Assembly: GCA_036389275.1 (NCBI GenBank)
Contig: DASVQE010000106.1
Coordinates: forward strand, 10,178 to 74,177
Length of the DNA: 64,000 bases
Source: Thermoanaerobaculia bacterium
GTDB taxonomy: Bacteria > Acidobacteriota > Thermoanaerobaculia > Gp7-AA8
Reading direction: 5' to 3'
Every line of letters starts with the position of its first letter. Position 1 is the stretch's first letter. The notes below the pieces were generated by a model. That model saw only the letters and a program-made list of their open reading frames with translations. It did no database searches and was not told the DNA's origin. Below are positions 6,444-43,489 of this stretch, piece by piece. The position numbers and the translations under genes are program-made.

Positions 6444-8977
6444 CTGCAATCGATCCCGGTCCCGCCGAAGGCAATCGGCGATTTCTCGCCAGCGTGAATG
6501 TGTACGGCGCCGGCATCGCCGGCCTCTCGGCCGCGCACGAGCTGATCGAGCGCGGCTTCCGCGTCCGCATCATCGAATACGACCGGGCGATCGGGCCGGA
6601 CGGAGACGAAGGACCGGCCATCGGCGGCCTCGCCCGCAATCAATACGTTCGCGCGCCGAAGCTCCTCTCGCCGCGATGGTGGGAGATCGACGCCGACGCG
6701 ATCTGGACGGCTGAAGAATCGGACGATGCGCTGCTGCCGATCTACTTCGACCGCCAGAGCGCCGAGTTGACCGACGAGGCCAGGACATCGCTGCAGCGCG
6801 CCGCTACGGCGATCCAACGGAAGTTCGGAATGGTGGGCGTGCAGATCAGTAGCTCCGCCCGCGACGCCAAGAGCCCGAAACAGAATCGCACGCTCGGCGC
6901 GGCGCGCGCCGAAGCCATCAAAGCGACGTTGCGCGACGCGCTTCCCGGCATGACCGACGAACACTTCGCCGTCATCGAGGACGAGGCGCTGTACGAGACG
7001 TCCGACGAGCGCGGCGTGGCCATGGTCGGCATCGTCAAAGTGATCCTGCCGGGCGAGCACGGCTTTCACTTCTTTCCCGGGTACTACCGGCATCTCTTCG
7101 ACACCATGCGCCGCACGCCGATCCTCGACGATCACGGACGCGAGACCACCCGCACGGTCTACGACAACCTGACCGTGGCGCCCGACCAGAGCTTCGCCGT
7201 CGAGTCTCCGCAGCCGACCTCGCCCGACGAATCGCAGGACTACCTGCAGGTGGCGATGCGCCTGCAGCGCTACCTCGTGACCTCTCCGGCGCGGCGCGCA
7301 GCCGAGCTCGAAGACATCTCCTGGTGGCAGTACCTGCAGGGCTGGAATCCGGCCACGGGCGTGCCGCTGTACATCTACTCGCCTGCGTTCGCGCAGAACG
7401 TGAAGTTCTCCGGGCGCGTCCTGGCGGCGTTCGACGCGGAATGGGGCGACGCGCGCACGAACGGCGATACGTACATCCAGTTGCAGATGAACACATGGAC
7501 GGGCGGGAAGACGTTCGACGGCATTCTCAACGGCGGCGAGACCGACGCCTGGTTTCTGCCGTGGAGGCGCTATCTCGAGTCGCGCGGCGTGACGTTCGTC
7601 AACGCCCGCCTTCAGGGTTTCGAGGTGGAAGGCGGCGTGTTGCGGGCGATGGTCACTCCCTGGGGCGCGGACACCGCAGTCGCTGATGACGACGCGGACT
7701 ATTTCATCTCCGCGACCGACGTCGCCAGCGCGGAGACGGTGACCTCGAAGCTTCCGGCGATCGGAGTGCCGGGAAGTCTGCGCGGCTACACGACCATCGT
7801 CGCGCCGTTTCCGCCGCTGATGGGCGAGGCCGATCCGGCGTGGGCGCGGGAAAAGATCGTCCGCGATCCGCTCACCCAACCCGGTCTGCGCTACTGGGAT
7901 CGCCTGCAGACGCTCTCGGGCATTCAGTATTTCTTTGCCAACGAGTTCAAGCTCGTGAGCGGCTACATGTACTTCACCGACGCGCCGTGGGCGCTGTCGT
8001 CGATCAATCCGCAACAATTCTGGACGCACCGTCCGACGCTCGAAACGGACGGATACGTTTCCGTGATGAGCGTTGACATCGGCGACTGGCGCGCGCCGTC
8101 CAGAACGCCCACACTGCTCGGGCGAACGGCATGGAATTGCACGGAAGAAGAGATCGCGCGCGAAGTGTGGCGGCAGGTCACCACATCGTTGCTACGAAAC
8201 ACGCCCGACCTCATCCTCCCGCAGCCGGTCTGGTACAACGTCGATCAGAACATCGTCTTTGGCAAACCACCCTCCGGAACGCCCCGGAAAAACCTCACGC
8301 CTTATCAGATCCCGATCGTGGGCGACTGGAAGCGCCGTCCTGTCGGCGATCCGTGGGATCCGACTCCGACTCTGACGAATCTCAACGGTCCGATCGCCAA
8401 ACTTCCTTCGGGCGTCACGCAAGCAAAGCACGGCGGCTACCTCGTGCATTGGGACAAGCTCGTCTTCGCCGGAACGTACATGCGCACGTTCACGCGCATG
8501 ACCACCATGGAATCGGCCAATGAGTCCGCGCGCCATGCGGTGAACGCGGTCATCGATCATCTGGTCGACAAGCGCTATTGGACCGAGGTCGTCGCACGCG
8601 TCGCCCCTGCGACGGCGAATGCCGGCGAGCCGAACCTCAATAGCAATTTCACGCGCGAGTTCCCGCGGCCCAGTCCCGTCGGCGACTACTGCCGCATCTG
8701 GAATCCGGAGGAGAACGAGCTGCCGAGCGCAAGCGCGGCCCGCGACGAGGACGCGATTCGATTCGCGTGCGGACTTCCGCACATCTGGGACGTCCTTGGT
8801 ATCGAGCTGCCGGCTTCGACGGCGAGTTATCAACGCGCCATTCTCAAAGGCTGGTGGCCTCCGCCGTTCGATCCCGACGCCGCCGCCCGCGTGGCGGCGG
8901 CAATGCCGACGACCGAGTCGCTTTTCGAATCACTGGCGCGCATCCGACAAACTCTCGAGGACTCTTCCCATGAATGA
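6440..8977 (+). CDS. FAD-dependent oxidoreductase (amine oxidase / carotenoid desaturase-like) with inserted OmpA-like segment
   Basis: N-terminal dinucleotide-binding fold VNVYGAGIAGLSAAHELIERGFRVRIIE; ~130-aa insertion containing OmpA-C-like signature IYFDRQSAELTDEARTSLQRAA...NRTLGAARAEAIKATLRDAL before the fold resumes (GEHGFHFFPGYYRH); 845 aa from the ATGA-coupled ATG at 6440 (849-aa ORF in track), unusually long. Confidence 0.7.
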   Translation: MTAIDPGPAEGNRRFLASVNVYGAGIAGLSAAHELIERGFRVRIIEYDRAIGPDGDEGPAIGGLARNQYVRAPKLLSPRWWEIDADAIWTAEESDDALLPIYFDRQSAELTDEARTSLQRAATAIQRKFGMVGVQISSSARDAKSPKQNRTLGAARAEAIKATLRDALPGMTDEHFAVIEDEALYETSDERGVAMVGIVKVILPGEHGFHFFPGYYRHLFDTMRRTPILDDHGRETTRTVYDNLTVAPDQSFAVESPQPTSPDESQDYLQVAMRLQRYLVTSPARRAAELEDISWWQYLQGWNPATGVPLYIYSPAFAQNVKFSGRVLAAFDAEWGDARTNGDTYIQLQMNTWTGGKTFDGILNGGETDAWFLPWRRYLESRGVTFVNARLQGFEVEGGVLRAMVTPWGADTAVADDDADYFISATDVASAETVTSKLPAIGVPGSLRGYTTIVAPFPPLMGEADPAWAREKIVRDPLTQPGLRYWDRLQTLSGIQYFFANEFKLVSGYMYFTDAPWALSSINPQQFWTHRPTLETDGYVSVMSVDIGDWRAPSRTPTLLGRTAWNCTEEEIAREVWRQVTTSLLRNTPDLILPQPVWYNVDQNIVFGKPPSGTPRKNLTPYQIPIVGDWKRRPVGDPWDPTPTLTNLNGPIAKLPSGVTQAKHGGYLVHWDKLVFAGTYMRTFTRMTTMESANESARHAVNAVIDHLVDKRYWTEVVARVAPATANAGEPNLNSNFTREFPRPSPVGDYCRIWNPEENELPSASAARDEDAIRFACGLPHIWDVLGIELPASTASYQRAILKGWWPPPFDPDAAARVAAAMPTTESLFESLARIRQTLEDSSHE

Positions 8978-9569
8978 CGACCGCCGCGTTTCTTTCGACG
9001 ACGAGCCGCTGATCGTCGTGGACGAGCACGACTCCGTTCTCGGCTTCCGCTCGAAGGCGGAGGTGCACAAAGGCGACGGCATTCTCCACCGCGCCTTTTC
9101 CGTGTTTCTCTTCAACGAGCGCGGAGAAATCCTCATGCAACAGCGCAGCGAGGGAAAGCCGCTCTGGCCGAATTACTGGTCGAACAGTTGTTGCAGTCAT
9201 CCGCGCCGCGGCGAGGCCATGGCGGAGGCGATCCAGCGCCGGGTGGTTGAGGAGCTGGGCGTATCGGCCGAGGTCGAGTTTCTCTTTCGCTTTCAGTACC
9301 ACGCGCCGTTCGGCGAGCGCGGCAGCGAGCGTGAGTTGTGCTCTGTCTTTTTCGGGCGCTGCGATGATGAGCTGGCGGTGAACGCGAACGAAATCGGGGA
9401 GTGGGAGTGGACCTCGGTCCGCCAGTTCGAATCGTGTCTCGCGCGCTGGCCGCACCTGTACACGCCGTGGCTGAAGCTGGAATGGGCCCAAATCCGCCAG
9501 TCGCATTGGAATTTTGTCGAACGCTATGCGATGTATGTCGAGAAGGAATGCCACCCGTCCCGAGCGTAG
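8970..9569 (+). CDS. idi: isopentenyl-diphosphate delta-isomerase, type 1 (Nudix)
   Basis: HRAFSVFLFNERGEILMQQRSEGKPLWPNYWSNSCCSHP matches type-1 IDI signature (…WTNSCCSHP…E…E); start overlaps upstream stop by 8 nt. Confidence 0.85.
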   Translation: MNDDRRVSFDDEPLIVVDEHDSVLGFRSKAEVHKGDGILHRAFSVFLFNERGEILMQQRSEGKPLWPNYWSNSCCSHPRRGEAMAEAIQRRVVEELGVSAEVEFLFRFQYHAPFGERGSERELCSVFFGRCDDELAVNANEIGEWEWTSVRQFESCLARWPHLYTPWLKLEWAQIRQSHWNFVERYAMYVEKECHPSRA

Positions 9570-10333
9570 CGAAGCTGATCGTCGGATTTGTTGTGATGGC
9601 GCTCGTCTTCATGACTCTGGAGCGCTTCGCGGCCGCGACGCCGCGCAAGCCGCTCTTTCGCCGTGAGCGCGCGGTCGACTTCGCCTGGTGGTTCTTCACA
9701 CCGTGGGTGACGAAGACCGCATCGACCCTCGCGGCGATCTTTGCCATCATCGTCGCAACGCTGTTCGTCCGTCTGATCAGCGGCGCCGATCCGTCGGCGC
9801 GTTGGATCGAGGCCCAGCCGCGGGCGTTGCAGATCGTGGAGATGCTCGTCCTCGCCGACCTCCTCGGATACGGCGCCCATCGACTGTTTCACGGACGGAG
9901 CTTGTGGCGGTTCCACGCCATCCATCACAGCGCCGAGGATCTGGATTGGCTGGCTGCGACTCGGATGCATCCGGTGAACGATGTGGTGATGACGGTGCTG
10001 CAGTTCGTTCCGCTCTATCTCATCGGATTCCGCGGCGAGACCCTCACGGCACTCGTTCCGCTGCTCAGCGTCTACGCGCTCCTGCTGCATGCGAACCTGC
10101 GCTGGGACTTTGGTCCGCTGCGATATGTCATCGCCAGCCCCGCTTATCACCGCTGGCATCACACGAGCGAGGCGGAAGGTCTTCAACGCAACTTTGCCGG
10201 GCTCTTTCCGTGGATCGACATGCTCTTCGGAACGCTCTACCTTCCGCGCGATCGCCACGCGCAGCGTTTCGGACTCGAAGGCGATCAGGTCCCGCGCTCG
10301 CTCCTCGCGCAGCTCGCCTATCCGTTCCGCTGA
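9548..10333 (+). CDS. fatty acid hydroxylase superfamily protein (sterol desaturase / carotenoid hydroxylase-like di-iron membrane enzyme)
   Basis: TM helices plus three histidine boxes HRLFH, HAIHH, HRWHH in canonical spacing; start overlaps idi end. Confidence 0.75.
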   Translation: MPPVPSVAKLIVGFVVMALVFMTLERFAAATPRKPLFRRERAVDFAWWFFTPWVTKTASTLAAIFAIIVATLFVRLISGADPSARWIEAQPRALQIVEMLVLADLLGYGAHRLFHGRSLWRFHAIHHSAEDLDWLAATRMHPVNDVVMTVLQFVPLYLIGFRGETLTALVPLLSVYALLLHANLRWDFGPLRYVIASPAYHRWHHTSEAEGLQRNFAGLFPWIDMLFGTLYLPRDRHAQRFGLEGDQVPRSLLAQLAYPFR

Positions 10334-11520
10334 GGCTCAGGATTCTCGAGCACGCGCCTGACTTCCTCGATCACTCCGGGCGTGCGCGGATCGTCGGCTC
10401 CGCCAGGCATCTCCACCACTGACTGTCCGATGACGAGCACGCGCGCGCCGGTCGTCGCTGTGGTCACCTTCGAGGCGTGAGGAGGAGGAGGCGGAATCGC
10501 GAGTGGCGCGGCCGGAATCGCCACCGACGGAAGGCCGAAGGCGATGTAGTAGGCCGTCGTGTGCTGGTAGCCCATCTGAGCCAACCAGTTCGCTTCCGCG
10601 GTTGCGGCAGGATTGATGAGCGAGGAGTTCACGGTTCCGATGATCGGCTGCACGTCCGGCATGATCGGCGCGTAATTTCCCTTCGCTGCGACGGCGGTGG
10701 CGAGCTCCACCAGCGAATCGATGCCGCGGCTCTCTGGGATCGCCGGCGCAAAGAGTGTCGGCAGCGCGGCCATCGTCTGCAGAGCCCACCAGTGTTGAAC
10801 CGGGTCGAGCGTGTTGATGAAACGCCGCGTCGTGCCGCCGAGGCGCGAAGCATAATAGTTCGCGAACTCCAGGTTGCCGGGCGTGGCGCCGGCGGTGGGC
10901 ATCGTCGACACCGTGGCGACGCGGTTCGGGTCCCAGCCCATCGCCGTTCCCTGCTGGTCGGCAAGCCAGAGCGCGAGCGCCGGCGCGAGCGCGCCGCCGA
11001 GGCTGTGTCCAGTGGTCTCGACCTGCACGCGGTTGGAGGAGCGGGTTACCTGCTCCAGGAATTGCGGCAACGTCAGGCCTGCGCCTTGAAGTCCTGCGGA
11101 CGGCGTCATCGTCAGCAGAATCGACACGCCGCTGGCGGTGGCCATGGAAATGGCGGCACCTTCCGCCGCCTGCGCGGGCCACGGCACCTGCACGGCGACA
11201 TTGAAGTCTTCGAGGAACCAGTCCATGGGTGAAGGGATGTTGGTGCCGGCCATGGCCACGACGAAGCGCGTCGGCTGTCCGATCGGGCTGGCCACATACA
11301 TCGCATTGAGCGCATACCCGTCGGCCGGGTACTGCATCACCGCAGGTCCCCAAACCACCTGCCACGGCGTATTCGTCTTCGCCAGACCCTCCGCCACGGA
11401 GTACGCGAGGCGATAGTCCAGACCGGGCCCGGTCAGAAACGAAACGAGGTTGGAGAGATAAGAAAGAAGAAAAACAACCTTGTCGTCCGGAGTGATCGTC
11501 GAGCCCTTCGCTATCGCCAT
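10318..11520 (-). CDS. class 3 lipase (alpha/beta hydrolase)
   Basis: Nucleophile elbow TGHSLGGALAPALALWLA typical of Lipase_3 family; start chosen at internal ATG (MAIAKG...) ~80 nt downstream of terminator copy A. Confidence 0.7.
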   Translation of the reverse strand: MAIAKGSTITPDDKVVFLLSYLSNLVSFLTGPGLDYRLAYSVAEGLAKTNTPWQVVWGPAVMQYPADGYALNAMYVASPIGQPTRFVVAMAGTNIPSPMDWFLEDFNVAVQVPWPAQAAEGAAISMATASGVSILLTMTPSAGLQGAGLTLPQFLEQVTRSSNRVQVETTGHSLGGALAPALALWLADQQGTAMGWDPNRVATVSTMPTAGATPGNLEFANYYASRLGGTTRRFINTLDPVQHWWALQTMAALPTLFAPAIPESRGIDSLVELATAVAAKGNYAPIMPDVQPIIGTVNSSLINPAATAEANWLAQMGYQHTTAYYIAFGLPSVAIPAAPLAIPPPPPHASKVTTATTGARVLVIGQSVVEMPGGADDPRTPGVIEEVRRVLENPEPQRNG

Positions 11521-11602
11521 TCGGCCATCATGACATAAAGACGCAATTCCGTATATGCCGCAAGACAGCGTTTGTGGAATGGCGTTACGGCGAGTCTGCT
11601 CT

Positions 11603-11631
11603 GAAAACACGAAAGCCGCCCAAGTGGCGGC
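11603..11631 (-). terminator. rho-independent terminator-like hairpin (copy A of repeated tRNA-Asp trailer)
   Basis: On minus strand: GCCGCCACTTGGGCGGC hairpin followed by TTTCGTGTTTTCAG; near-identical to element downstream of intact tRNA-Asp at 25180-25208. Confidence 0.5.
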
Positions 11632-11650
11632 TGATCAGCGCAACGAAATT

Positions 11651-11687
11651 TGGCGGGCCGACGGGGCTCGAACGCGCGACCTCGAGG
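11651..11687 (-). repeat. degenerate copy of tRNA-Asp 3' end (T-arm + acceptor 3' strand + CCA), copy A
   Basis: Minus strand reads GAGGTCGCGCGTTCGAGCCCCGTCGGCCCGCCA vs genuine GGAGGTCGCGGGTTCGAGCCCCGTCGGCCCCGCCA; no matching 5' half, so not a functional tRNA. Confidence 0.5.
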
Positions 11688-11950
11688 TCTAACGGATCAG
11701 GCACGCTCGCAGGCGCGACTTTGGCTGAGCCGCGGAACCGCATAACCAACTCGCTACCAATTCGGCATCGGCTAAGTAGCGCCACGGCTCGCGCGAGGCC
11801 GTCCGCCGGCCATCGCGCTCTAGCAGTAGATCGCCGCAGAGCTCATGGCCGCAGACGTAGCGGCAATCATGGGGCCACCTCCTGATGTTGCGTTCTTGGG
11901 GGTCGGGGATAGGAGCGAAGAAGGGAGAATTGGGAGCGAGAAGTCCATTC

Positions 11951-14900
11951 TCAATTCTCAGCAGCCTGCAGCCACCAGGATAGCGCCGCCGCGACGTCGC
12001 TCACGGGCGAGCCACGGAAACGCTGGCGGATCGCTTCGACGAGCTGGCGGTAGTGATCGGCGCGATGCATGCGCGCCCGAATGACGGACGATTGCGTGCG
12101 CCGGCGAATCGCGCGGCCGCCGGCGCCCGGAATCAACAGCGCGGCGCGAATGAGTGCGAACGCGGCATAGCTACGCTCGAGAAGCGCCCGGTCGAGCCGG
12201 AGCAATGTCTCGTTTCCCGACAGAGCCGCGAGATCGCCGAGGTATGCGGTCATGAGCGCATGGCGCCCGGTCCAGCCGGCGGCATCGGGCGGCAATAACC
12301 CCTGGTCTTCCAGGAGCTGGGCAACCTCGTAAAAAATCGGAAAACGCGCCGACTCGCTCGCTTCGAGGTCGAGCATCACAACGGATTGATCGCGCGTCAC
12401 GAGCCAGTTTTCGGCGTGCGCGTCCTTCTTGGCCACGGTCGGCAGCTCGGCATGGAGAGCGGCGCGAAGCATCTCCGCGACGCGCAACCTCTCCTCGCGA
12501 GGAACGTTGCAGAGCGACGCCAGCTCCTTAAGGCTATCGCGGATCACATCCGACAATGACGCCGCGGCCATGAGACCGCTTCCGACGCTGCGCCATGCGT
12601 GGAAACGCGCGAGAAACTGCACGGCGCGATCCAGCAGCACGCTCATTGCCGCCGCCGGATCGGAGCGGCGGAGGACGGCGATTCCGAGCTCGATGCCCGA
12701 TTCGCGGCGCATCACGTATGCAGTATTGCGCGCGGATTCGATCGTGGTGAGAGGTTCCGGCAGACGCATCCACGCCGGAGCTTGCGTCGCGGAGAGATAG
12801 TCGCGAAAAGCGCGGATCGTCGTGACCTCCCTCTCCGCGTTGTCTTTCGGGGTCTCTTTGACGATGAGTGTCGTGCTCAACAGCCGGTGCGGATCGTCGA
12901 TCGTATAGACCTTCGAGCGCCCGCTGTAATTGAAGTCGCGGCGGAAGCCGACCCGATTCTCCACGGCGATGCGACAAGCCTCGTGCAGGAGCTTGCCTGC
13001 CTCGCCGTTCACAGTCATTGCGACCAGCGGTTCCATTGCCGTCTCGCCCAAATGTTGTCGTGCAATCCCGCGCTCTCGCTCGGGCGCGCGCGACGCTTCG
13101 GCGAGCTGCATGACCGGCCACGCCCACGTGGGATCGGTCTGCGCCGCATCGGCCGCGGCACGAATGGCGGTGGTGAGGTCGGCGGCGGAATGCGTAATGG
13201 ACCAGATCTGTAATGCGGCATTGGCCGTGACGCTGAGATTCTCGCGCCAGCTCACGGCGTCGCCGGCGCCTGCCGAAGCACGCGCCCGATTCTTCCACTG
13301 CACCGCGGCCCGCAGATCTTCGACGTCGCGCCGCGCCCTCCCGCGCCGGAAATAGACGTCGCCCACGAGTCCGAACAACTCGGGGGTAGTATTTCCAAGC
13401 TCGTGCGCCTTCTCCAGATGGCGGATCGCCTCCGCCGCGTCGGGATCGTCACCGGTCAGGCCGTGAAGACGCGCATAAGCCTCGCCAGCGCGGCTATGCA
13501 CCGCCTTGACCGGGATTTTCTCCGAGAACGCGACGCCGGAAGAGTGGCGCGCAAATGCGTGCTCCATGAAATCGGCCGCGTCACGCAACAGAAGAACGGC
13601 GGCGGCGTCATGACCTTCCGCGAGCTCATTTCTGGCGAGCCGCAACGCCACCTCGCCGGCATGGCCATAAAGCTCCGGCGCGGCGGGCTCCTCGGTGGCA
13701 TCGATTGCCTCCATATACAACGCGTACGCCTCCCGATAGAGCGCGACGTCCTTTCGCGCCTTCGCGAGGAGCAGGGTCAGGCTGGCCGCGTGTCCTAGTG
13801 CAAAGCGGCGCGCCGGTCCCGAATGTGCTGGCTGCGCGGCGACACGCGTAAATATTGCCACGACGGGATGGACATACTCACGCCATTTCGGGTGGTCGCG
13901 CCTGACGAGAAACCGCAATGCATTGCTGAGCACCGGAACCAAGACGACGGTCTCGGGCGCTCGCTCGCGGATCCACCATTCGAGTTGCCGTGCGGTTTCT
14001 TCGAGATCCTCCGCGGCCATGCTGATCGCGAGCTCCGTATTGGCGACGCCGTACTTCGCTCGCTCCCTCAACCCCTCGGCGCCCTGAACCTCCTCGGCCG
14101 CGACCGCGCGATCCAGCGCCTCGCGCGCGTCCACGAGTGATCCCTGCAGCTCATTGCGTTTGTGCCGCAACTCCGCGCGGGCAACGAGGGCGGCCGGCAG
14201 CCACAGGTTCCTGAAGCTGGCGTTGTTCTCCCGTTCCACGTGCCGTAGGTCGTCGATGGCCCGCTCGAGCACGGCTTCTTCACGCGCGGGGTCGTCAATC
14301 ATGTACGTCCATCGCACAGCGGCGGCGGCGCGATTGAGGCGAAGGTACGGCTCCGCATGCGCGTGATGCGGCGGAAGCTCGAGCCCTTCCGTAAATGCAG
14401 CCATGGAGGATTCGAGTAGCGCAATCGCCTTCTCCGAATCTCCCTGCTCGGAGAGTCGATCCGCAAGTGCGGACGCAACAGTGCCGCGCAGACTGGAGAG
14501 CGCGCGCGTGCGCAATCCGCGTCCTCGCGCTTCGTCCAGCACCGCGGATGCGGCATGCAATTCGGTTATGTCGCGTGAGGTCTCATAGTGGTATAGCCAG
14601 GCTTCCACGAGATACTCCGAACGCTGCGGCGAGGAATCGCCAAGCAATCCGCTTTCCTGCAGATCCGCGATGGCGCGGACGAACAGTTCCGGCTGCGCTT
14701 GCGACCTGCCGAGAAAAACGGAAGTGACGCCGCGCATCCCGAGATAGCGGCGCCGCACGTGAGGATTCATCCGCGCTGCGTCCGCGGTCAGAAGGAAATC
14801 GAAATCGCGCAGGCACGCCTGCAGAGCCGCGACCTTTTCCGGGGTAATCGTCCCGCGGCGCCCGTAATGAAATTCGCGAGACGCCATGCTGCGCCTCGAT

Positions 14901-15277
14901 TCGAAATAGCATCCGGAAAGCGACATCGGACGGCCGGAGTTTGTCGCGGTACTCGTGGCGAGAAACCGGTGCAGGGTGCGCTCCCAAGGCATTCCGCGCT
15001 CGAACGCGCTCCGGAAGACTCCGAGCAGCAGCAGCACCGGGCGGTCCCACATTTCTTCGTCCGGCACTCGACGGTTGTCCAAAAACGTTTTCCATGCGCG
15101 GCCGAACACCACGCCGTCCGCTGGCGGACTCAATAAATCTGCAATGGTGACCGGGGCGATCAGCTCATTCGCGCGCGCGACGAGCTCCGCGTCGTCAAGA
15201 GCAATGCCGAGGGAGCGAAACGTCTCTTGTACGTCAGCATGAATGAAGGATGAGCTTACTTCTCTTACAGTATACAT
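11951..15277 (-). CDS. giant helical-repeat (TPR-like) protein with C-terminal APH/choline-kinase-like phosphotransferase domain
   Basis: 1108 aa; C-terminal ~300 aa carries kinase-fold landmarks: Gly-rich stretch then lysine (NYSGRSKVYTI...TLIVKETP), catalytic-loop-like DAHAENWLVTRD, and LDLE (cf. APH HGDxxxxN and IDxE); N-terminal ~750 aa alpha-helical repeats; no P-loop. Confidence 0.7.
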   Translation of the reverse strand: MYTVREVSSSFIHADVQETFRSLGIALDDAELVARANELIAPVTIADLLSPPADGVVFGRAWKTFLDNRRVPDEEMWDRPVLLLLGVFRSAFERGMPWERTLHRFLATSTATNSGRPMSLSGCYFESRRSMASREFHYGRRGTITPEKVAALQACLRDFDFLLTADAARMNPHVRRRYLGMRGVTSVFLGRSQAQPELFVRAIADLQESGLLGDSSPQRSEYLVEAWLYHYETSRDITELHAASAVLDEARGRGLRTRALSSLRGTVASALADRLSEQGDSEKAIALLESSMAAFTEGLELPPHHAHAEPYLRLNRAAAAVRWTYMIDDPAREEAVLERAIDDLRHVERENNASFRNLWLPAALVARAELRHKRNELQGSLVDAREALDRAVAAEEVQGAEGLRERAKYGVANTELAISMAAEDLEETARQLEWWIRERAPETVVLVPVLSNALRFLVRRDHPKWREYVHPVVAIFTRVAAQPAHSGPARRFALGHAASLTLLLAKARKDVALYREAYALYMEAIDATEEPAAPELYGHAGEVALRLARNELAEGHDAAAVLLLRDAADFMEHAFARHSSGVAFSEKIPVKAVHSRAGEAYARLHGLTGDDPDAAEAIRHLEKAHELGNTTPELFGLVGDVYFRRGRARRDVEDLRAAVQWKNRARASAGAGDAVSWRENLSVTANAALQIWSITHSAADLTTAIRAAADAAQTDPTWAWPVMQLAEASRAPERERGIARQHLGETAMEPLVAMTVNGEAGKLLHEACRIAVENRVGFRRDFNYSGRSKVYTIDDPHRLLSTTLIVKETPKDNAEREVTTIRAFRDYLSATQAPAWMRLPEPLTTIESARNTAYVMRRESGIELGIAVLRRSDPAAAMSVLLDRAVQFLARFHAWRSVGSGLMAAASLSDVIRDSLKELASLCNVPREERLRVAEMLRAALHAELPTVAKKDAHAENWLVTRDQSVVMLDLEASESARFPIFYEVAQLLEDQGLLPPDAAGWTGRHALMTAYLGDLAALSGNETLLRLDRALLERSYAAFALIRAALLIPGAGGRAIRRRTQSSVIRARMHRADHYRQLVEAIRQRFRGSPVSDVAAALSWWLQAAEN

Positions 15278-15610
15278 ACCGCCGGATTATAGAAGCTCGT
15301 GCCCCGGATCGATGTGGGTCATCTCGGCGATGACCATGCATTCGGGTGCGCCTCGCCGCTCCTGCCGCCGGGAAGAGGCAACACCGAGGCCGCAGACGAT
15401 GGCGCAGGTCCAAAAGATGTCGCGCAGGGTGCCTTCGAGGCGCCCTGCAACTGCGCGAGCTCGGCGCGAGCGATGTGCGATCGCACCAATGACCTCGTTC
15501 GCGTGGAACATTCGCGATTTGCACCGTTATTCAGTGCTTTCCGCAGCCTCTCGAAACGCCTACCTTGTGCGGAACGTTGTGCAGCTCGTTCGTCGCTTTT
15601 TCGTGTATGC

Positions 15611-15636
15611 AAACGAAAACGCCGCCAAGTGGCGGC
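15611..15636 (-). terminator. terminator-like hairpin (copy B of tRNA-Asp trailer), 3' of TPR-CHAT gene
   Basis: GCCGCCAAGTGGCGGC palindrome preceded on + strand by aaacgaaaac (U-run on minus strand). Confidence 0.5.
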
Positions 15637-15653
15637 GAGTGAATCACTTAGAT

Positions 15654-15713
15654 TGGCGGGGGCGACGGGGCTCGAACCCGCGACCTCCGGCGTGACAGGC
15701 CGGAGGGCTAACG
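15654..15713 (-). repeat. partial tRNA-Asp copy B (anticodon arm through CCA), pseudo-tRNA
   Basis: Minus strand CCGGCCTGTCACGCCGGAGGTCGCGGGTTCGAGCCCCGTCGCCCCCGCCA matches 3' ~50 nt of tRNA-Asp at 25228-25304 incl. GTC anticodon loop; D-arm and 5' acceptor absent. Confidence 0.6.
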
Positions 15714-15893: not shown

Positions 15894-18800
15894 TCACGAA
15901 GAGGTAACGAAGGCGTTGGGGGGCAGCTCGTTCGGATCGCCGATACAAATGAAACCCGCCCACAAATAGGGCGCTTCGTAGTCCTTCGCGACGGTGCGTT
16001 GCGCCAGCCGGAGCGCCTCCACGCGCCGGGCGCCGCGTTTCAGATGGACGTAGAAATGCTCCATCAGCTCGCGTGTCGCGTCGTCCGGTACGGGCCACAG
16101 GCTGACGATCAGCGTCCGTGCCCCGGCGAGTAGGAAGACGCGGCGGAGTCCGAAGACGCCTTCGCCAATCTGGTACTCACCGAGTCCCGTTTCGCAGGCC
16201 GAGAGCACGACCAATTCGGTGCTGGTGAGGTCCATCGAAAGCACATCTTCGGCGAACAGCACGCCGTCATCGAGGTCGTCGACGGCCGACATCCCTTCTA
16301 GCCACGTATTCGCGCCGGCGAGGACCACGCCGGAGCGAAGCAGCGCGTCTTTGCCGCCCAGCGGCCGGGGAGTGCTGCGGGCGTTTCGCAGAAGCGACTC
16401 CGCGGCGGCGGACTGGTCTTCCACGAAGAAACCATGCGTCGCGAGGTGGAGGATGAGAGGAGAGCGCCGTGATTTCACGGCCCGCTCCGTTGCCTCGGCG
16501 CCGAGAAGCGGCCGCACGTTGAGGAGTGTGGCCACGGCTTCTCCTTCCGCGCGCGTTCCGGCGAGCGGAAGGAAGACCGGAGACGTGATCTCGCGGTTCG
16601 CTCCGGCGTCGTAGTCCGGATCCGCTATTACCAGCGGGGCTGATGCGGGAGCGCCGGAAGCGTGCTGCACTCGCAGCAGATCGCGTGCTGTGGGGAGATA
16701 GCTGATCTCGAATAGGTCTCCGATGGAATCGCCGGTCTCCGTCTGCAGAATCCCGAACGGTAAGCGATGCAGCGCGCCGTCCGGAACGATGAACAGACGG
16801 TCGCGGCCGGCCAGCGCGGGCGCGAACGAATTCCACAGATGCTGCCACAGGTTCGCGCTCAGTCGGGTCCATTGGGCGCGGATCGGAATCGCCAGGTGGG
16901 GGAGGGCCGATTCCGCCTCGAGATCCTTCCGGATCTGTTCGATCAGCGGATCGATGTTCTCGGCTGAGCCGAGCACACACATTGTCACGCGCTCCGGCGC
17001 GCCGTTCGGCAGGATGAAGCCGAAATAGGCGCGCACCCGTCGGTCGGTGCCGGCCGCAAACATGTCGAGGGTGAGGAATTCGAGCAACGCGGCACCGAGA
17101 GGAAGCGCGGCAGCGAGCGAGGCGCGGTCGGCGCGCCGCAAACGCTCGGCCAGAGCGATTTCCGGGACGACGCGTGCGAGATCGAGTTCCAGCTTGCGCC
17201 GCTGCGATTTCAGCTCCCCGATCTGGTCTGCCGCGCCGTCCGCGGCATCCAGCGTCAGCCGGGCGATCTTGGCGCGCACCGCGAGCAGCTCGTCGAACTT
17301 CGGCCGCAGCTCCGAGCGGGTGTTGAGCGCGAGCAGCTCGCGCTCCGACGCGATCGTCTCCGCGAGGATGGCCTTCCGCTGCACGGCCATGTCGAACATC
17401 ACCATGGCGATGGCGGGATGCTCGTCGATGTGCGGCAGCAGCATCATGCCCGCGGTTGCGACACGCTCGAGGATCTCGCGCAGAAACGCAGCGCGCTCCT
17501 CTTCCGACGTCGCACCGAACGCGGCATCGATGGCCAGGTTTTCTTCGCGAAGGCTCTCCGACAGCATGACCACGGCATCGTCGACCCGCCCCGCGTCGAT
17601 GAGAGCCATCGCCAGGTTGAAGGCTGACTGGGCGCGGAACGGATGACCCTCTGGAAGAACGCGTTTGCGGATCGACAGCGCCTCGGTCTGCAGATCGATG
17701 GCGTCCTGCCCGCGCCCGGTTCGCGCATACGCGTTCGAAAGGTTATTCGCATTCGCCGTCCACTGGATGTCGCGCTCCTTCTTGAGCGCAAGCGCTTCTT
17801 CGAGATGCTCGATGGCTCGCCTGTCGTCGCCGCAATTGAGAAAGAAAAGTCCCGCGTTGTTGAGCGCGGCGGACAACTCCAGCGGCTCCTCGGCCGCTGT
17901 GCGAAGAATCGCCAAGGCCTCCTTGAACAGAGCCTCGGCCGCATCGCGCCGTTTCTCGAACTCATGCACGCTCGCTTGGTGCATCAGCGCCATGGCATAC
18001 CAGCGCGATCTCTTTCCTTCCTTCTCCGCGCGCGCACGGAACTGTGCAACGAGCGGCTTCATGGCCTCGATGTTGCCCATACGGTGATAGACATCGATGA
18101 GCTGATTGAGCGGAGTCCCGATGCGGTCGAAGGGCTGATCGTCGGGGTTCTCGATGCGCATGAGCCGTTCGAGGGCGCGCTTTGCTTCCGGGTCGTTGTG
18201 CTCCGCGAGCTCGAGACCGGAAAGGTGCTCGATCGTGTTGCGCAGATCGGAGTCCGTTGCGTCCTCCCGGCTCTCCTTCGCGGCAACCGACCGGCGGTAG
18301 TGTTCGCGGGCCTGTGTGGCATCGCCGGAGATGTTATGTAGCGCGCCGAGGTTGTGCAGTGTTCCGGCGATCTCCCGATGATCGGGTGGAAGAACCTGTT
18401 GCTGGATCTGCAACGCCTCGCGGAGCAGCTCGCCGGCTCTCGGAAGGTCGGTCCGCAGGGTGATCAGCGCGTAAGCCACATTCCCCAGCATTCGCGCCAA
18501 GCCCGCATCGGGGGCCGCCGTCTCGCGATGGATGCGAACGGCGTGCTCGAAGAGCGTGCGCGCGCCGTGGAGATCTCCACGCTCGCGGAAGGCGATCCCG
18601 GTGTTGTTCAGCTCCGCCGAGAGTTGCGGTGCCCATTCGCGGATCGCCGCGGGATCGCCCATCTTGAGGCAAGCTACGACGTTGTCGACGCTTACGGGCT
18701 CTTCGCGTTCGGTTGCACCGCGCAGCCTCGTGAGCAGAGCCAGGACGGAGACACGCTGGCCCTTCGCGGCGACCGCCGGATCGACTGCGCCGGGATCCTC

Positions 18801-19448
18801 ACCGGCGGCACCGCGGATGAGGATGATGTTCTCCGCATAGATTCGCTCTCCTTCGGCATCGCCGAAGCGGCGGCAATGTTCGTACGCCGCCGTAGTCGCC
18901 TCGAGCGCGCCGCGATGATCGTCCGCCGCCAAGCGGCATTCGCCGATACGGCCGAGAACCATTGATCGCAGGTGATCGACGGCCGGACCGTCGGCGGCGT
19001 CCATCTCGCGCAGCACGGAAGCAAGCATCCGCTCCGCGCGCTGGCCGTCGCCGTTCTCGAGTATGGAGGATGCCTCCTCCATCATGTGCTGCCAGCGCTC
19101 GGTAGGGTCGTCGTCTTCTTCGCCCTCCTCCTCGTCATCGCCGGGCTGCGACATCAGCAGCTCGCGCGGGCCGGTGTCCCCCAGGTAATCGGCGAAGAAC
19201 TTCGCGATCGTGCCGAGGACCATGCCGTGGAGCTGGACCTCGGATCCATCGGTGCCTTCCTTGATCTCGATGACCCGCCATTGTGGTAGCTCGCGTTTGA
19301 TCAGCTCGCGATGCTTGCGGCAGAGATCGAGGAACGCCTGTGCGTCACCCCGCGCGGCGGCCTTGCGCAGTTCTTTCCACACTTTTTCGGGCGACGCGGC
19401 GCGGAAGAAATCAAACACGGGGCCTCCTGATGACGGACTCCACGTCAT
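15894..19448 (-). CDS. giant TPR-repeat protein with C-terminal CHAT (caspase-like) peptidase domain
   Basis: 1184 aa; C-terminal CHAT signature with catalytic dyad context PLILHLATHGFF (His) and ELVVLSACETGLGE (Cys); long TPR-like repeats upstream; acidic Glu/Asp run near N-terminus. Confidence 0.8.
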   Translation of the reverse strand: MTWSPSSGGPVFDFFRAASPEKVWKELRKAAARGDAQAFLDLCRKHRELIKRELPQWRVIEIKEGTDGSEVQLHGMVLGTIAKFFADYLGDTGPRELLMSQPGDDEEEGEEDDDPTERWQHMMEEASSILENGDGQRAERMLASVLREMDAADGPAVDHLRSMVLGRIGECRLAADDHRGALEATTAAYEHCRRFGDAEGERIYAENIILIRGAAGEDPGAVDPAVAAKGQRVSVLALLTRLRGATEREEPVSVDNVVACLKMGDPAAIREWAPQLSAELNNTGIAFRERGDLHGARTLFEHAVRIHRETAAPDAGLARMLGNVAYALITLRTDLPRAGELLREALQIQQQVLPPDHREIAGTLHNLGALHNISGDATQAREHYRRSVAAKESREDATDSDLRNTIEHLSGLELAEHNDPEAKRALERLMRIENPDDQPFDRIGTPLNQLIDVYHRMGNIEAMKPLVAQFRARAEKEGKRSRWYAMALMHQASVHEFEKRRDAAEALFKEALAILRTAAEEPLELSAALNNAGLFFLNCGDDRRAIEHLEEALALKKERDIQWTANANNLSNAYARTGRGQDAIDLQTEALSIRKRVLPEGHPFRAQSAFNLAMALIDAGRVDDAVVMLSESLREENLAIDAAFGATSEEERAAFLREILERVATAGMMLLPHIDEHPAIAMVMFDMAVQRKAILAETIASERELLALNTRSELRPKFDELLAVRAKIARLTLDAADGAADQIGELKSQRRKLELDLARVVPEIALAERLRRADRASLAAALPLGAALLEFLTLDMFAAGTDRRVRAYFGFILPNGAPERVTMCVLGSAENIDPLIEQIRKDLEAESALPHLAIPIRAQWTRLSANLWQHLWNSFAPALAGRDRLFIVPDGALHRLPFGILQTETGDSIGDLFEISYLPTARDLLRVQHASGAPASAPLVIADPDYDAGANREITSPVFLPLAGTRAEGEAVATLLNVRPLLGAEATERAVKSRRSPLILHLATHGFFVEDQSAAAESLLRNARSTPRPLGGKDALLRSGVVLAGANTWLEGMSAVDDLDDGVLFAEDVLSMDLTSTELVVLSACETGLGEYQIGEGVFGLRRVFLLAGARTLIVSLWPVPDDATRELMEHFYVHLKRGARRVEALRLAQRTVAKDYEAPYLWAGFICIGDPNELPPNAFVTSS

Positions 19449-19990: not shown

Positions 19991-20090
19991 GAAACACGAA
20001 GCGCCGAAGTGGCGTCTGCTGAGTGCTTTAGATTGGCGAGGCCGACGGGCTCGAACCCGCGACATCCGGCATCAGGCCGGCGGTCTTGGC
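19991..20090 (-). repeat. degenerate tRNA-Asp 3' fragment + degenerate terminator hairpin (copy C)
   Basis: Minus strand CCGGCCTGATGCCGGATGTCGCGGGTTCGAGCCCGTCGGCCTCGCCA plus GCGCCGAAGTGGCGTC hairpin; ~230 nt toward lower coordinates also resemble region 25070-25180 next to genuine tRNA. Confidence 0.5.
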
Positions 20091-23100: not shown

Positions 23101-23469
23101 CTGCTGCTGCACGACGATCCACTGACGTTCAACGATCTTTTGGACACCGAGCTGAAGCTCGACTGCGACCTCTTTCTCGCGCTCGCATGTTTCGGGGCGC
23201 GTGTGGATGCCGACTGGCATTCGCGCGAGACCGTCGGTTTTTCCAGCGCGCTGCTGCAATCGGGCGTGCGCAATGTGGTCGCAGGACTGTGGCCGATGAC
23301 GGTGGGCTTCGCAACGGCGTTCGGGGCCGCGATCATGCGGCACCTCGCCGCTCGAGTGCCGATCGCCGACGCCTGCCGGCGTGCACTGATCGAGACGCGC
23401 GACGCCGATCCGCGCTGGGCCCATCCGTGGTCGTGGGCCGGTGTGAGGCTGACCGGCACCGGCTCCTGA
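20143..23469 (+). CDS. giant zinc-ribbon + TPR-like protein with C-terminal CHAT peptidase domain
   Basis: 1108 aa; N-terminal Cys4 ribbon (CGMCG ... CIVCPNC); helical repeats; C-terminal CHAT context VVFYFGHGDY (His) and LFLALACFGARVD (Cys). Confidence 0.75.
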   Translation: MYPLRMLSFVSDNAIPCGMCGFPLPRTTVYRVVRDDSDPVAVASVMDGNVNCIVCPNCEYKGWITIPLLWVDRAHKRAVFVENAASHPGQSETVFNELAEIAFGGVDPEDREAILGRLQQVKWPTEIRAALKLSPEQAEAERKAYDAFLRRDILPLPERLEQAIRDMIQSGAFYAEGRELSREFLALAEGELAKIAENDMSSRAQSLRQLVPNLAERIKTTSPQETPPVPAADWEAEGGPKFEGFTAWINVASRDSGEQGTTGKRGSAEAAPVVDFAGLAGRAASENDASERVAVLRELTSGYLNAGLPHEAAAAAREFLKAAGAANDQAAGVDALVFAAAAAARSGDGQAAINYLAHAEAEIHKMSSVSIQTLAYGAEIGGDAYMLVRRFPDACRQYQRALELYERDGRADGIRVALGRLANACMRAGDLDQAIAADRRLVDELGDTADGIRTRLNLGGALATASPPPELTVDIGFTVAPKSSPETQTAERLDAPAPAAPPGLRCRIEAKLRTEVGRERVLFETIVGDEAIDQMTRARNDAIRIGADDLELSAYDFMVNAFLGYHMRRAARDVLQLSIKRHEELGRSVRPYTVALLGAVWEATAQDAGVAGDQDEARNAWTRALGVFERAERESAARGELDAADEIRSMSKAGQSICLEALGRHAEARDGYRRAMGMFEGARQYLIERDQKEFVQGRSMILFSRAQRNNLALYASTGDAALLEESFYFADAGRSRILLDEIGAAGIARPVTVEDIAGGLPHGAALVQYSLMPTYPNCAGSWAIYTIVPRTGLAPFVIQQNLDQVLKARDALYSAIDTFQAGQWHDFGSFNAALEDLGSLLLPPQLVEFLRRSGVTRIIFAPEAYLMDVPFAALRVRWNGTLDDLSRGGIETIVVPSASVYVSAGERRAKESAAHSLLCISDPNEDLPGVTEWIDQNVRSTWPGKSEHLSKTNAVRSGVFGALPQARVVFYFGHGDYEQNDIDSSGLLLHDDPLTFNDLLDTELKLDCDLFLALACFGARVDADWHSRETVGFSSALLQSGVRNVVAGLWPMTVGFATAFGAAIMRHLAARVPIADACRRALIETRDADPRWAHPWSWAGVRLTGTGS

Positions 23470-25227: not shown

Positions 25228-25304
<77 letters not shown>

Positions 25305-43469: not shown

Positions 43470-43489
43470 CTCTCTCTCCGGTGTCGGGA

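What the first reader, a model, noticed from the sequence alone, without database searches (positions are those of the whole stretch)
11951..15277. Giant helical-repeat protein fused to an APH/choline-kinase-like phosphotransferase domain
The first island module encodes 1108 aa. Its last ~300 residues carry kinase-fold landmarks: a Gly-rich loop then Lys (TLIVKETP), the catalytic-loop-like DAHAENWLV, and LDLE. This domain sits behind ~750 aa of TPR-like repeats with no P-loop NTPase. A TPR + small-molecule-kinase-like fusion next to TPR-CHAT proteins is not a standard annotated architecture. It may be a sensor-effector of the same system.
Basis: partly seen in the sequence, partly recalled or inferred. 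Interest (0 to 1): 0.55.

Follow-up and report, generated by a model that had tools for sequence, protein, structure and literature searches.

The report
Solitary TPR-solenoid protein with active-looking APH-like kinase
This gene encodes a large helical-repeat (TPR) protein ending in an apparently active kinase related to antibiotic and choline kinases; it belongs to an unnamed, horizontally moving family found near defence genes, and it arrived here separately from the neighbouring CHAT protease genes.

Summary
The ORF is real: window 11951-15277, minus strand, 1108 aa, with every quoted motif present. Residues 1-775 form a TPR-like superhelix (AlphaFold2 pLDDT 90; best fold matches Ski3, Ctr9, OGT/SPY). 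Residues 776-1108 form an APH/choline-kinase-like kinase (Foldseek: NahK, APH(3')-Ia, homoserine kinase II, choline kinase; E down to 6e-6).

No Pfam, NCBIfam, PADLOC or PDB sequence model detects the kinase in this protein. A profile search nevertheless finds 306 clusters of relatives. About 80 of the best 152 share this architecture. The catalytic Lys, Glu, Asp, Asn and Mg-binding Asp are essentially invariant.

A sister clade adds a C-terminal KptA/Tpt1 domain. An actinobacterial clade is operonic with a SMODS-associated NUDIX gene.

The proposed link to the TPR-CHAT genes is not supported. Only 2 of 122 related loci have a CHAT gene nearby. In the window, the kinase gene and the CHAT genes lie in three separate cargo modules, divided by partial tRNA-Asp copies with terminator-like hairpins.

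Best reading: a solitary, mobile sensor-effector kinase of a conflict system. The substrate is unknown; RNA or a nucleotide is the leading guess. It is a new variant of a known kind, of moderate interest.

The parts
11951..15277 (-). Complete gene for the 1108-aa TPR-kinase protein. It equals NCBI HEX8172967.1, a hypothetical protein of a Thermoanaerobaculia MAG.
12953..15277 (-). Residues 1-775: an all-helical TPR-like superhelix of about 36 helices. It is the least conserved part of the family. Proposed role: sensor or scaffold.
   Evidence: AlphaFold2 on the 42-sequence alignment gives pLDDT 90. Foldseek top matches are Ski3/TTC37, Ctr9, IFT-A TPR proteins, TTC7B and OGT/SPY TPR. The family profile hits consensus TPR proteins at E 3e-29 and OGT TPR at 2e-8. 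Conservation profile.
11954..12952 (-). Residues 776-1108: an APH/choline-kinase-like kinase domain with a C-terminal helical subdomain. Proposed role: effector.
   Evidence: Foldseek matches 4wh2 NahK at E 6e-6, plus APH(3')-Ia, 2ppq homoserine kinase, choline kinase and AmiN. Models. Pfam APH is hit by 12 of 42 relatives.
12905..12925 (-). Gly-rich nucleotide-binding loop, SGRSKVY (785-791).
   Evidence: G786 is G in 120 of 131 relatives. Coordinates checked.
12857..12859 (-). K807, the beta-3 ATP-anchoring lysine.
   Evidence: 137 of 137 relatives
12827..12829 (-). E817, the alpha-C glutamate that partners K807.
   Evidence: E or D in 137 of 137 relatives
12404..12430 (-). Catalytic loop KKDAHAENW (950-958), containing D952 (catalytic base) and N957 (Mg ligand).
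   Evidence: D952 150/151; H954, N957 and W958 151/151
12362..12370 (-). DLE (970-972), the DFG-equivalent metal-binding motif.
   Evidence: D970 151/151, E972 132/151
15620..15712 (-). Upstream module boundary: a partial copy of the tRNA-Asp 3' half (93% identical over 60 nt) followed by a 7-bp GC hairpin and a T run. It lies between the CHAT gene and the kinase gene.
11601..11708 (-). Downstream module boundary: a degenerate tRNA-Asp 3' fragment plus a 57-nt stretch 98% identical to the sequence just 3' of tRNA-Asp, which includes a terminator-like hairpin.
25228..25304 (-). Intact tRNA-Asp(GTC), the anchor of the serially accreted island.

Best explanation
The gene encodes a solitary, single-polypeptide sensor-effector of an undescribed family.

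Shown:
- A fast-evolving ~775-aa TPR superhelix is fused to a conserved kinase domain of the APH/choline-kinase branch of the protein-kinase-like superfamily.
- The kinase keeps every residue needed for ATP binding and phosphotransfer.
- The gene has no conserved partner gene in bacteria. The exception is an actinobacterial clade that is operonic with a SMODS-associated NUDIX gene.
- The gene is a compositional outlier in most hosts.
- In this window it was acquired as a one-gene cargo module at tRNA-Asp, independently of the two TPR-CHAT modules next to it.

Inferred:
- It works in biological conflict (anti-phage or abortive-infection type).
- The TPR solenoid binds an invader- or stress-derived ligand. 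This either relieves autoinhibition of the kinase or recruits the substrate.
- The kinase then phosphorylates a cellular or invader target, causing growth arrest.

Most speculative step: the target is an RNA or nucleotide hydroxyl rather than a protein. The reason is that a sister clade fuses the same kinase to an apparently active KptA/Tpt1 domain. KptA/Tpt1 is only known to act on phosphomonoesters of nucleic acids. In addition, the actinobacterial clade is coupled to a NUDIX enzyme.
For: - Fold: the C-terminal model matches NahK, APH(3')-Ia, homoserine kinase II, choline kinase and AmiN. The full-length model has pLDDT 90 and pTM 0.74, and its N-terminal region matches TPR superhelices.
- Catalytic residues are invariant in about 150 cluster representatives.
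- Family size: 306 representatives at E<=1e-3 and 253 at E<=1e-10. Of the best 152, 80 have this architecture and 22 carry a KptA tail.
- Pfam APH passes its threshold in divergent members, for example P0112 and L012.
- KptA is present in 44 of 122 loci and lies in the same ORF in 42. Its LRH / RA.YGHS / R..VHL motifs are kept.
- A Sa_NUDIX gene lies 4-nt overlapping to 48 nt upstream on the same strand in L002, L006, L008 and L009; L003 also has one upstream.
- No recurrent neighbour was found otherwise.
- Neighbours of type-A genes are often conflict genes: SIR2-TPR, NERD, Pycsar-type TIR, Fic, RelA_SpoT-like (twice), DNA methyltransferase, PDDEXK nuclease.
- The family gene's GC3 is 0.13-0.24 below that of its flanks in 7 of 10 loci. 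In the window it is 0.74 against 0.81-0.91.
- Module boundaries.
- Precedent for a kinase paired with KptA on RNA 2'-phosphate: ArkI/KptA (PMC9095486). KptA/Tpt1 also ADP-ribosylates 5'-phosphate ends (PMC8883491).
- APH-like kinases have been noted as effectors of prokaryotic conflict systems (PMC7159879, PMC8195603).
Against: - No experiment exists for any family member.
- No PADLOC model hits the protein.
- The window protein lacks both KptA and a NUDIX partner, so the substrate inference is transferred from sister clades.
- Some relatives sit between housekeeping genes: nitroreductase and ABC-F in Novosphingobium, and OEP genes.
- Guilt by association with defence genes rests on about a dozen loci inspected by hand, not on a statistical test.
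- A TPR solenoid next to a transferase, as in OGT/SPY, would equally suggest a protein substrate.
- Neither the window protein nor the family consensus reaches Pfam APH. Membership of that family therefore rests on fold and on transitive homology.
Confidence: 0.55

Rival explanations
1. The TPR-kinase is one component of a multi-gene system with the adjacent TPR-CHAT proteins, for example as a sensor kinase that activates or is processed by the caspase-like CHAT proteases.
For: The genes are physically close. CHAT1 is 616 bp upstream on the same strand and CHAT2 lies just beyond. All three proteins carry TPR-like regions. All three have the lower GC3 of the island. One relative (L050) has a CHAT gene about 6 kb away.
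Against: A CHAT gene lies within the flanks in only 2 of 122 loci. The closest relatives have unrelated neighbours. Each gene sits in its own module, bounded by a tRNA-Asp 3' fragment and a terminator-like hairpin, which implies separate acquisition and separate transcription.
Confidence: 0.07
2. The architecture is the same but the substrate is a protein. The TPR superhelix recruits a protein, as in OGT/SPY, and the APH-fold domain phosphorylates it, as APH-fold protein kinases such as YihE/SrkA do (from my own knowledge). The role would be either toxin-like effector or regulator.
For: TPR solenoids usually bind peptides or proteins. Foldseek matches to OGT and SPY show the same 'TPR then transferase' layout. 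TvaE, a peptide-phosphorylating APH-fold enzyme, is among the fold matches (rank 30).
Against: The recurrent fusion to KptA in 42 loci and the NUDIX operon point to nucleic-acid or nucleotide chemistry. No FHA, phosphatase or other phosphoprotein-signalling partner recurs.
Confidence: 0.22
3. It is a small-molecule kinase in the classical APH sense. It would inactivate an antibiotic or phosphorylate a metabolite, sugar or lipid head group, with the TPR part acting only as a scaffold.
For: The best fold matches are small-molecule kinases: NahK, APH(3'), homoserine kinase II, choline kinase and amicoumacin kinase. A Lipase_3 gene and a fatty-acid hydroxylase gene lie downstream in the window.
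Against: No characterised resistance kinase known to me carries a 775-aa TPR solenoid (own knowledge). There is no biosynthetic or resistance gene cluster context in 122 loci. Sequence similarity to all curated APH-clan models is below detection. The lipase and hydroxylase genes lie outside the module boundary at 11.6 kb.
Confidence: 0.1
4. It is a non-conflict regulatory protein of soil bacteria, acting in development or stress signalling. Its patchy distribution would reflect lineage-specific regulation rather than defence.
For: Many members occur in Streptomyces and other developmentally complex actinobacteria. Some loci have housekeeping neighbours.
Against: The family was found in only 49 loci among 185,579 species genomes with the motif scan. 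The gene is a compositional outlier. Here it is cargo of a tRNA-linked island. It is frequently adjacent to toxin or defence-type genes.
Confidence: 0.06

Closest known systems
APH / choline-kinase-like phosphotransferases (Pfam PF01636, protein-kinase-like clan), e.g. NahK 4wh2, APH(3')-Ia 4ej7, homoserine kinase II 2ppq, choline kinase alpha, AmiN 6sui
   Same: Bilobal kinase fold with a helical C-terminal substrate lobe. It has a Gly-rich loop, a beta-3 Lys, an alpha-C Glu, a D-x-x-x-x-N catalytic loop and a D-x-E metal-binding motif, all conserved. Some relatives pass the PF01636 threshold.
   Different: Sequence identity to solved structures is only 9-14%. Neither the window protein nor the family consensus reaches PF01636 or any PDB sequence. 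The catalytic loop reads K-K/R-D-A-H-x-x-N-W instead of H-G-D-x-x-x-x-N. A 775-aa TPR solenoid is fused N-terminally.
APH-like 'small-molecule kinase' effectors of prokaryotic NTP-dependent ternary conflict systems (VMAP, iSTAND, iSTAND2, TERNS3; Kaur et al. 2020 PMC7159879 and 2021 PMC8195603)
   Same: An active APH-superfamily kinase used as an effector, combined with helical repeats, in bacteria with complex lifestyles and in variable genomic regions.
   Different: Those systems are defined by NTPase, vWA/MoxR and adaptor-domain partners. Here there is no NTPase, no Walker A and no conserved partner gene. I could not check whether this exact family is in their supplementary data.
ArkI (archaeal tRNA U47 2'-kinase) with KptA as eraser (Ohira et al. 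2022, PMC9095486)
   Same: A protein-kinase-like-fold enzyme with a D-x-E metal motif is functionally paired with KptA. In the sister clade of this family the kinase and KptA are fused in one ORF.
   Different: ArkI is a small stand-alone ePK/COG2112-type kinase with an HGQ catalytic loop. It was not among the top 50 fold matches. The window protein has no KptA. RNA kinase activity for this family is only a hypothesis.
TPR-plus-catalytic-domain enzymes such as OGT/SPINDLY, and TPR-sensor defence proteins (Avs-type STAND proteins; the TPR-GreA/B-C-PIN system, Pfam TPR-S PF20308)
   Same: A long TPR superhelix is placed directly before or after a catalytic or effector domain. The repeat region is variable and the catalytic region is conserved.
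   Different: The catalytic domain is a kinase, not a glycosyltransferase, nuclease or NTPase. TPR-S matches are sub-threshold and occur in only 4 of 42 relatives.

Membership tests
APH / choline-kinase-like phosphotransferase (PF01636, PKinase clan) | Significant match to the curated family profile | tested here: not met
   The window protein and its C-terminal 362 aa have no APH-clan hit even at E<=10. The family consensus also fails. However, 12 of 42 relatives match PF01636 (best E 1.5e-16). P0112 scores 31.1 bits and L012 scores 32.2 bits against a cut-off of 23.2. These relatives are linked to the window domain at E 1e-33 and below.
APH / choline-kinase-like phosphotransferase (PF01636, PKinase clan) | Bilobal protein-kinase-like fold closest to APH/ChoK structures | tested here: met
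   Foldseek probability is 1.00 with E 6e-6 to 1e-3 for NahK, APH(3')-Ia, homoserine kinase II, choline kinase and AmiN. TM-scores are 0.33-0.47 with the pLDDT-71 model. In the full-length model the kinase region is mostly pLDDT 80-96.
APH / choline-kinase-like phosphotransferase (PF01636, PKinase clan) | ATP-anchoring Lys (beta-3) and its Glu partner (alpha-C) | tested here: met
   K807 is conserved in 137/137 relatives and E817 is E or D in 137/137. In the model they lie on strand 802-809 and helix 811-830.
APH / choline-kinase-like phosphotransferase (PF01636, PKinase clan) | Catalytic loop D-x-x-x-x-N and downstream metal-binding Asp (D-x-E / DFG equivalent) | tested here: met
   D952 150/151, N957 151/151, D970 151/151, E972 132/151. 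The His of the usual H-x-D is replaced by Lys/Arg at position 950.
APH / choline-kinase-like phosphotransferase (PF01636, PKinase clan) | ATP-dependent phosphotransfer to a hydroxyl substrate | not testable with these tools
   This needs biochemistry.
TPR repeat proteins | Tandem helix-turn-helix repeats forming a superhelix, recognisable by TPR profiles | tested here: met
   The window protein alone gives only sub-threshold Sel1 and TPR_12 hits. The family profile hits consensus TPR proteins at E 3e-29 and OGT TPR at 2e-8. The model has about 36 paired helices. The best fold matches are Ski3, Ctr9, TTC7B and OGT/SPY.
TPR-S sensor domain (PF20308) of TPR-GreA/B-C-PIN type systems | Match to PF20308 above threshold; associated GreA/B-C and PIN domains | tested here: not met
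   There is no hit in the window protein. Hits occur in 4 of 42 relatives (best E 6.7e-7). The two inspected score 18.5 and 19.4 bits against a cut-off of 27.6. No GreA/B-C or PIN domain was detected.
NTP-dependent ternary / STAND conflict systems (Kaur et al. 2020) | A STAND, MoxR or other NTPase plus vWA or adaptor partners, in the protein or the operon | tested here: not met
   There is no Walker A motif and no NTPase domain. No recurrent neighbour was found in 122 loci.
One system with the neighbouring TPR-CHAT proteins | Conserved co-occurrence and co-transcription with a CHAT gene | tested here: not met
   A CHAT gene lies near the family gene in 2 of 122 loci. Terminator-like hairpins and tRNA-Asp fragments separate the genes.
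Kinase-KptA/Tpt1 fusion clade of the same family | C-terminal PTS_2-RNA (PF01885) domain after the kinase | tested here: not met
   The window protein ends at residue 1108 after the helical tail and has no PF01885 hit. The fusion is present in 17 of 42 relatives, 22 of 152 representatives and 42 loci.
ArkI-type RNA 2'-kinase | COG2112-type ePK-like core with HGQ catalytic loop; tRNA 2'-OH phosphorylation | not tested
   No ArkI sequence was compared directly. ArkI is not among the top 50 fold matches. The catalytic loop here is KKDAH, not HGQ (PMC9095486).

The most novel reading that the evidence does not exclude
The family is a nucleic-acid-directed kinase toxin. On activation through its TPR sensor, the APH-fold domain phosphorylates an RNA hydroxyl: a 2'-OH as ArkI does, or a 5'-OH end. 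In the sister clade, the fused KptA would then ADP-ribosylate that new phosphate to make an unrepairable cap, or else erase it to reset the system. In actinobacteria, the SMODS-associated NUDIX would process the ADP-ribosylated or nucleotide product. If so, this would be a conflict system built on RNA phosphorylation by a protein-kinase-like enzyme, a mode of action I did not find described in the literature searched. The window protein would be its minimal, kinase-only form.
Probability: 0.2. Interest if true: 0.85.

Novelty: new variant of a known kind. Interest (0 to 1): 0.55.

Why it matters
The work defines a sizeable protein family that no curated library covers: at least 250 clusters at 50% identity, in Acidobacteriota, Actinomycetota, Novosphingobium (Alphaproteobacteria) and Methanothrix. 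The family joins a large TPR sensor directly to an apparently active APH-type kinase, with no NTPase switch.

Kinase effectors are rare among characterised defence systems. The recurrent fusion of this kinase to KptA/Tpt1 and its operon with a SMODS-associated NUDIX give a concrete, testable lead towards phosphorylation-plus-ADP-ribosylation chemistry on RNA or nucleotides.

The window also gives a clean example of serial one-gene cargo accretion at a tRNA gene. This warns against reading adjacency in such islands as membership of one system.

Tried and rejected
- Direct sequence annotation failed. Pfam, NCBIfam and PADLOC on the full protein and on the C-terminal 362 aa found no kinase family even at E<=10.
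- Searches of PDB sequences found no kinase. I tried the domain, the 5-sequence profile, the family consensus and a relative that does hit Pfam APH.
- The family consensus does not reach Pfam APH.
- The word-indexed homolog search returned only 4 relatives, both with the single protein and with a 42-sequence alignment. The exhaustive representative search was needed to see the family.
- The idea that CHAT is a conserved partner was tested twice by tblastn and rejected.
- I looked for tRNA genes or the tRNA-Asp fragment near relatives and found none. The tRNA-linked island is therefore specific to this genome.
- The family was sought in IMG/VR, GenBank phages and PLSDB plasmids, with no match.
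- The window's NUDIX gene (8619-9569) is not a Sa_NUDIX relative.
- RtcB and RtcA occur near relative P0002 but in no other locus, so I treat this as coincidence.
- A weak tblastn hit of a KptA tail inside the target gene is out of frame and was discarded.
- TPR-S membership was considered and rejected as sub-threshold.
- Literature searches for a described TPR-APH-KptA family found nothing specific.


Full report
**1. Observation**

The quoted motifs are all present:
- SGRSKVY at 785-791
- TLIVKETP at 803-810 (K807)
- DAHAENWLV at 952-960
- LDLE at 969-972

There is no Walker A motif. The next two genes are TPR-CHAT proteins. One is at 15894-19448 (-), with CHAT at E 1e-72. The other is at 20143-23469 (+), with CpXC, TPR and CHAT domains.

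The exact protein is NCBI HEX8172967.1, a 'hypothetical protein' of a Thermoanaerobaculia (Acidobacteriota) MAG. IMG calls it 'TPR repeat protein'.

Taken alone, the motifs are weak evidence. A loose D....N/D.E pattern arises in 6.6% of shuffles. The case therefore rests on conservation and structure.

**2. The kinase domain**

Sequence libraries are blind to it. Pfam, NCBIfam, PADLOC and PDB sequence searches give nothing for the C-terminal 362 aa, even at E<=10.

Structure prediction is clear.
- A five-sequence alignment gave a model with pLDDT 71 and pTM 0.74.
- Its best PDB matches are all APH/choline-kinase-type enzymes: N-acetylhexosamine 1-kinase 4wh2 (E 6e-6), APH(3')-Ia, homoserine kinase II 2ppq, choline kinase alpha and amicoumacin kinase AmiN. 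Probability is 1.00 and TM-scores are 0.33-0.47.
- True protein kinases appear lower in the list, with TM-scores of 0.20-0.27.
- A 42-sequence full-length model reached pLDDT 90 and pTM 0.74. It shows the canonical order: strands, K807 strand, alpha-C helix, hinge, catalytic loop, DLE, then a helical C-lobe.

An exhaustive profile search found 306 cluster representatives at E<=1e-3 and 253 at E<=1e-10. In the best 152, the catalytic set is essentially invariant:

| Residue | Conservation |
|---|---|
| K807 | 137/137 |
| E817 | E or D, 137/137 |
| D952 | 150/151 |
| H954, N957, W958 | 151/151 |
| D970 | 151/151 |
| E972 | 132/151 |

Twelve of 42 diverse relatives pass Pfam APH (best E 1.5e-16). 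This links the family to PF01636 transitively. The family consensus itself does not reach PF01636.

The domain is therefore a divergent but catalytically competent-looking member of the APH/ChoK branch. Its catalytic loop, K-K/R-D-A-H-x-x-N-W, is family-specific.

**3. The N-terminal region**

Residues 1-775 are predicted as about 36 paired helices.
- Best fold matches are Ski3/TTC37, Ctr9, IFT-A TPR subunits, TTC7B and OGT/SPINDLY TPR domains.
- The family profile matches consensus TPR proteins at E 3e-29 and OGT TPR at 2e-8.
- This region is the least conserved part of the protein. Residues ~300-650 are missing in a shorter clade, while the kinase is the most conserved part. That pattern is expected for a variable sensor joined to a constant effector.
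- Pfam TPR-S hits are sub-threshold and occur only in a few relatives.

**4. Family architecture and distribution**

Among the best 152 representatives:
- 80 have the window's layout: at least 600 aa of helical region followed by a C-terminal kinase.
- 13 have a shorter N-terminal region.
- 38 are kinase-only or fragments.
- 22 carry a ~200-aa C-terminal extension.

That extension is an RNA 2'-phosphotransferase KptA/Tpt1 domain (PF01885, best E 1.8e-32). Its LRH, RA.YGHS and R..VHL motifs are conserved. By my own knowledge these correspond to the Tpt1 Arg-His-Arg-Arg catalytic tetrad.

In 122 loci fetched from genomes and metagenomes, KptA is present in 44 and lies in the same ORF as the kinase in 42.

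Hosts are Acidobacteriota, many Actinomycetota, Novosphingobium and Methanothrix. More distant TPR-kinases occur in Woesearchaeota and Methanosarcinales. None were found in IMG/VR, GenBank phages or PLSDB plasmids.

**5. Context**

The link to CHAT does not hold.
- A CHAT gene lies within the fetched flanks in only 2 of 122 loci.
- The closest relatives (95, 75 and 55% identity) sit in three unrelated settings. One is next to a DnaE-like gene. One is next to GyrB with RtcB/RtcA nearby. One is next to Mfd and small ORFs.
- All-against-all clustering of neighbours finds no recurrent partner for bacterial members.

There is one exception. A SMODS-associated NUDIX gene (PF18167, E 6e-32 and 4e-35) lies directly upstream on the same strand, from a 4-nt overlap to a 48-nt gap, in four actinobacterial loci. 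It is also present upstream in a fifth.

Neighbours of the solitary members are often conflict-type genes:
- SIR2-TPR
- NERD nuclease
- Pycsar-type TIR
- Fic
- RelA_SpoT-like, at two loci whose kinase proteins share only 31% identity
- DNA methyltransferase
- YhcG PDDEXK nuclease

The family gene is a compositional outlier. Its GC3 is 0.13-0.24 below that of its flanks in 7 of 10 loci.

**6. The island in the window**

tRNA-Asp lies at 25228-25304 on the minus strand. Three further partial copies of its 3' half are each followed by a GC hairpin and a T run. They lie at about 20007-20070, 15620-15712 and 11601-11708. They divide the low-GC3 stretch into three cargo modules:

| Module | Content |
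|---|---|
| 20.07-25.23 kb | CpXC-TPR-CHAT plus DUF900 hydrolase |
| 15.71-20.0 kb | TPR-CHAT |
| 11.71-15.65 kb | the TPR-kinase alone |

The kinase gene was therefore acquired as a one-gene module. It has its own upstream terminator-like boundary. This argues against a shared operon with CHAT.

**7. Mechanism**

Shown: a solitary TPR-solenoid protein with a conserved, complete kinase active site, which is mobile and often found in defence-like neighbourhoods.

Inferred: it is a sensor-effector in which ligand binding by the TPR region controls or targets the kinase, and phosphorylation of a target causes the output.

The substrate is the weakest step.
- KptA/Tpt1 is only known to act on phosphomonoesters of nucleic acids. 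These are RNA 2'-phosphate, including the tRNA Up47 written by the kinase ArkI (PMC9095486), and 5'-phosphate ends, which it ADP-ribosylates (PMC8883491).
- NUDIX enzymes act on nucleoside-diphosphate derivatives.
- The recurrent kinase-KptA fusion and the NUDIX operon therefore point to RNA or nucleotide chemistry.
- The OGT-like layout equally allows a protein substrate.

I put the overall reading at 0.55 and the RNA-kinase version at about 0.2.

**8. Comparison with what is known, and novelty**

APH-like small-molecule kinases have been listed as effectors of NTPase-centred ternary conflict systems (PMC7159879, PMC8195603). TPR sensors are common in defence proteins. This family differs in three ways: it has no NTPase, it has no obligate partner, and its kinase is too divergent for curated models.

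I found no description of a TPR-APH(-KptA) family in the searchable literature. That library is incomplete.

Verdict: the feature is real. It is a new variant of a known kind, with interest 0.55.

Noticed in passing
window 11601-11708, 15620-15712, 20007-20070, 25228-25304: An intact tRNA-Asp is accompanied by three partial copies of its 3' half, each followed by a terminator-like hairpin. They divide a low-GC3 stretch into three cargo modules of one or two genes, with no integrase seen inside them. This looks like serial accretion at a tRNA gene.
   Followed up: partly
L016 8486-11602 and 41 other loci (e.g. L017-L036, L079-L109): A sister clade fuses the same TPR-kinase to a C-terminal KptA/Tpt1 RNA 2'-phosphotransferase domain with its catalytic motifs kept. 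It is mostly found in Streptomyces and other actinobacteria.
   Followed up: partly
L006 7545-8309, L009 7485-8252, L008 7405-8256, L002 8394-9197: A SMODS-associated NUDIX gene (PF18167) lies immediately upstream of the TPR-kinase gene on the same strand, from a 4-nt overlap to a 48-nt gap, in an actinobacterial clade. The pair is likely a two-gene operon.
   Followed up: partly
L058 6276-7418 and L060 4078-5361: RelA_SpoT-domain (small alarmone synthetase or toxSAS-like) genes lie convergent and immediately downstream of two TPR-kinase genes that are only 31% identical to each other. This may be a second recurrent association.
   Followed up: partly
L033 8795-10897 and 10885-11814; also L037-L049, L105-L122: Distant, shorter TPR-kinase proteins (~550-1090 aa) occur in Woesearchaeota and Methanosarcinales. 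They keep a conserved neighbourhood that includes a MazE/AbrB-domain protein, which suggests a different, non-mobile subfamily.
   Followed up: no
window 20143-23469 (+): The second CHAT protein begins with a CpXC zinc-finger-like domain (E 7e-7). Its CHAT region has a weak PADLOC BovA match (E 5e-6). Its ORF as listed starts with TTG.
   Followed up: no
window 23483-24922 (-): A DUF900 alpha/beta-hydrolase gene (E 4e-42) lies convergent with the CpXC-TPR-CHAT gene, 13 bp from its end, inside the same cargo module. It may be that protein's partner.
   Followed up: no
window 8619-11610: NUDIX, fatty-acid hydroxylase and Lipase_3 genes lie just outside the last tRNA-fragment boundary. They also have low GC3 (0.73-0.77), so there may be older island material here.
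   Followed up: no
window 15278-15300 (- strand): A perfect TATAAT lies 8 nt upstream of the ATG of the TPR-kinase gene, with no obvious Shine-Dalgarno sequence. The transcript may be leaderless or have a very short leader.
   Followed up: no
window 38862-43544 (-): This 1560-aa ORF has unusual codon-position GC (0.54 / 0.55 / 0.86). It was not examined.
   Followed up: no
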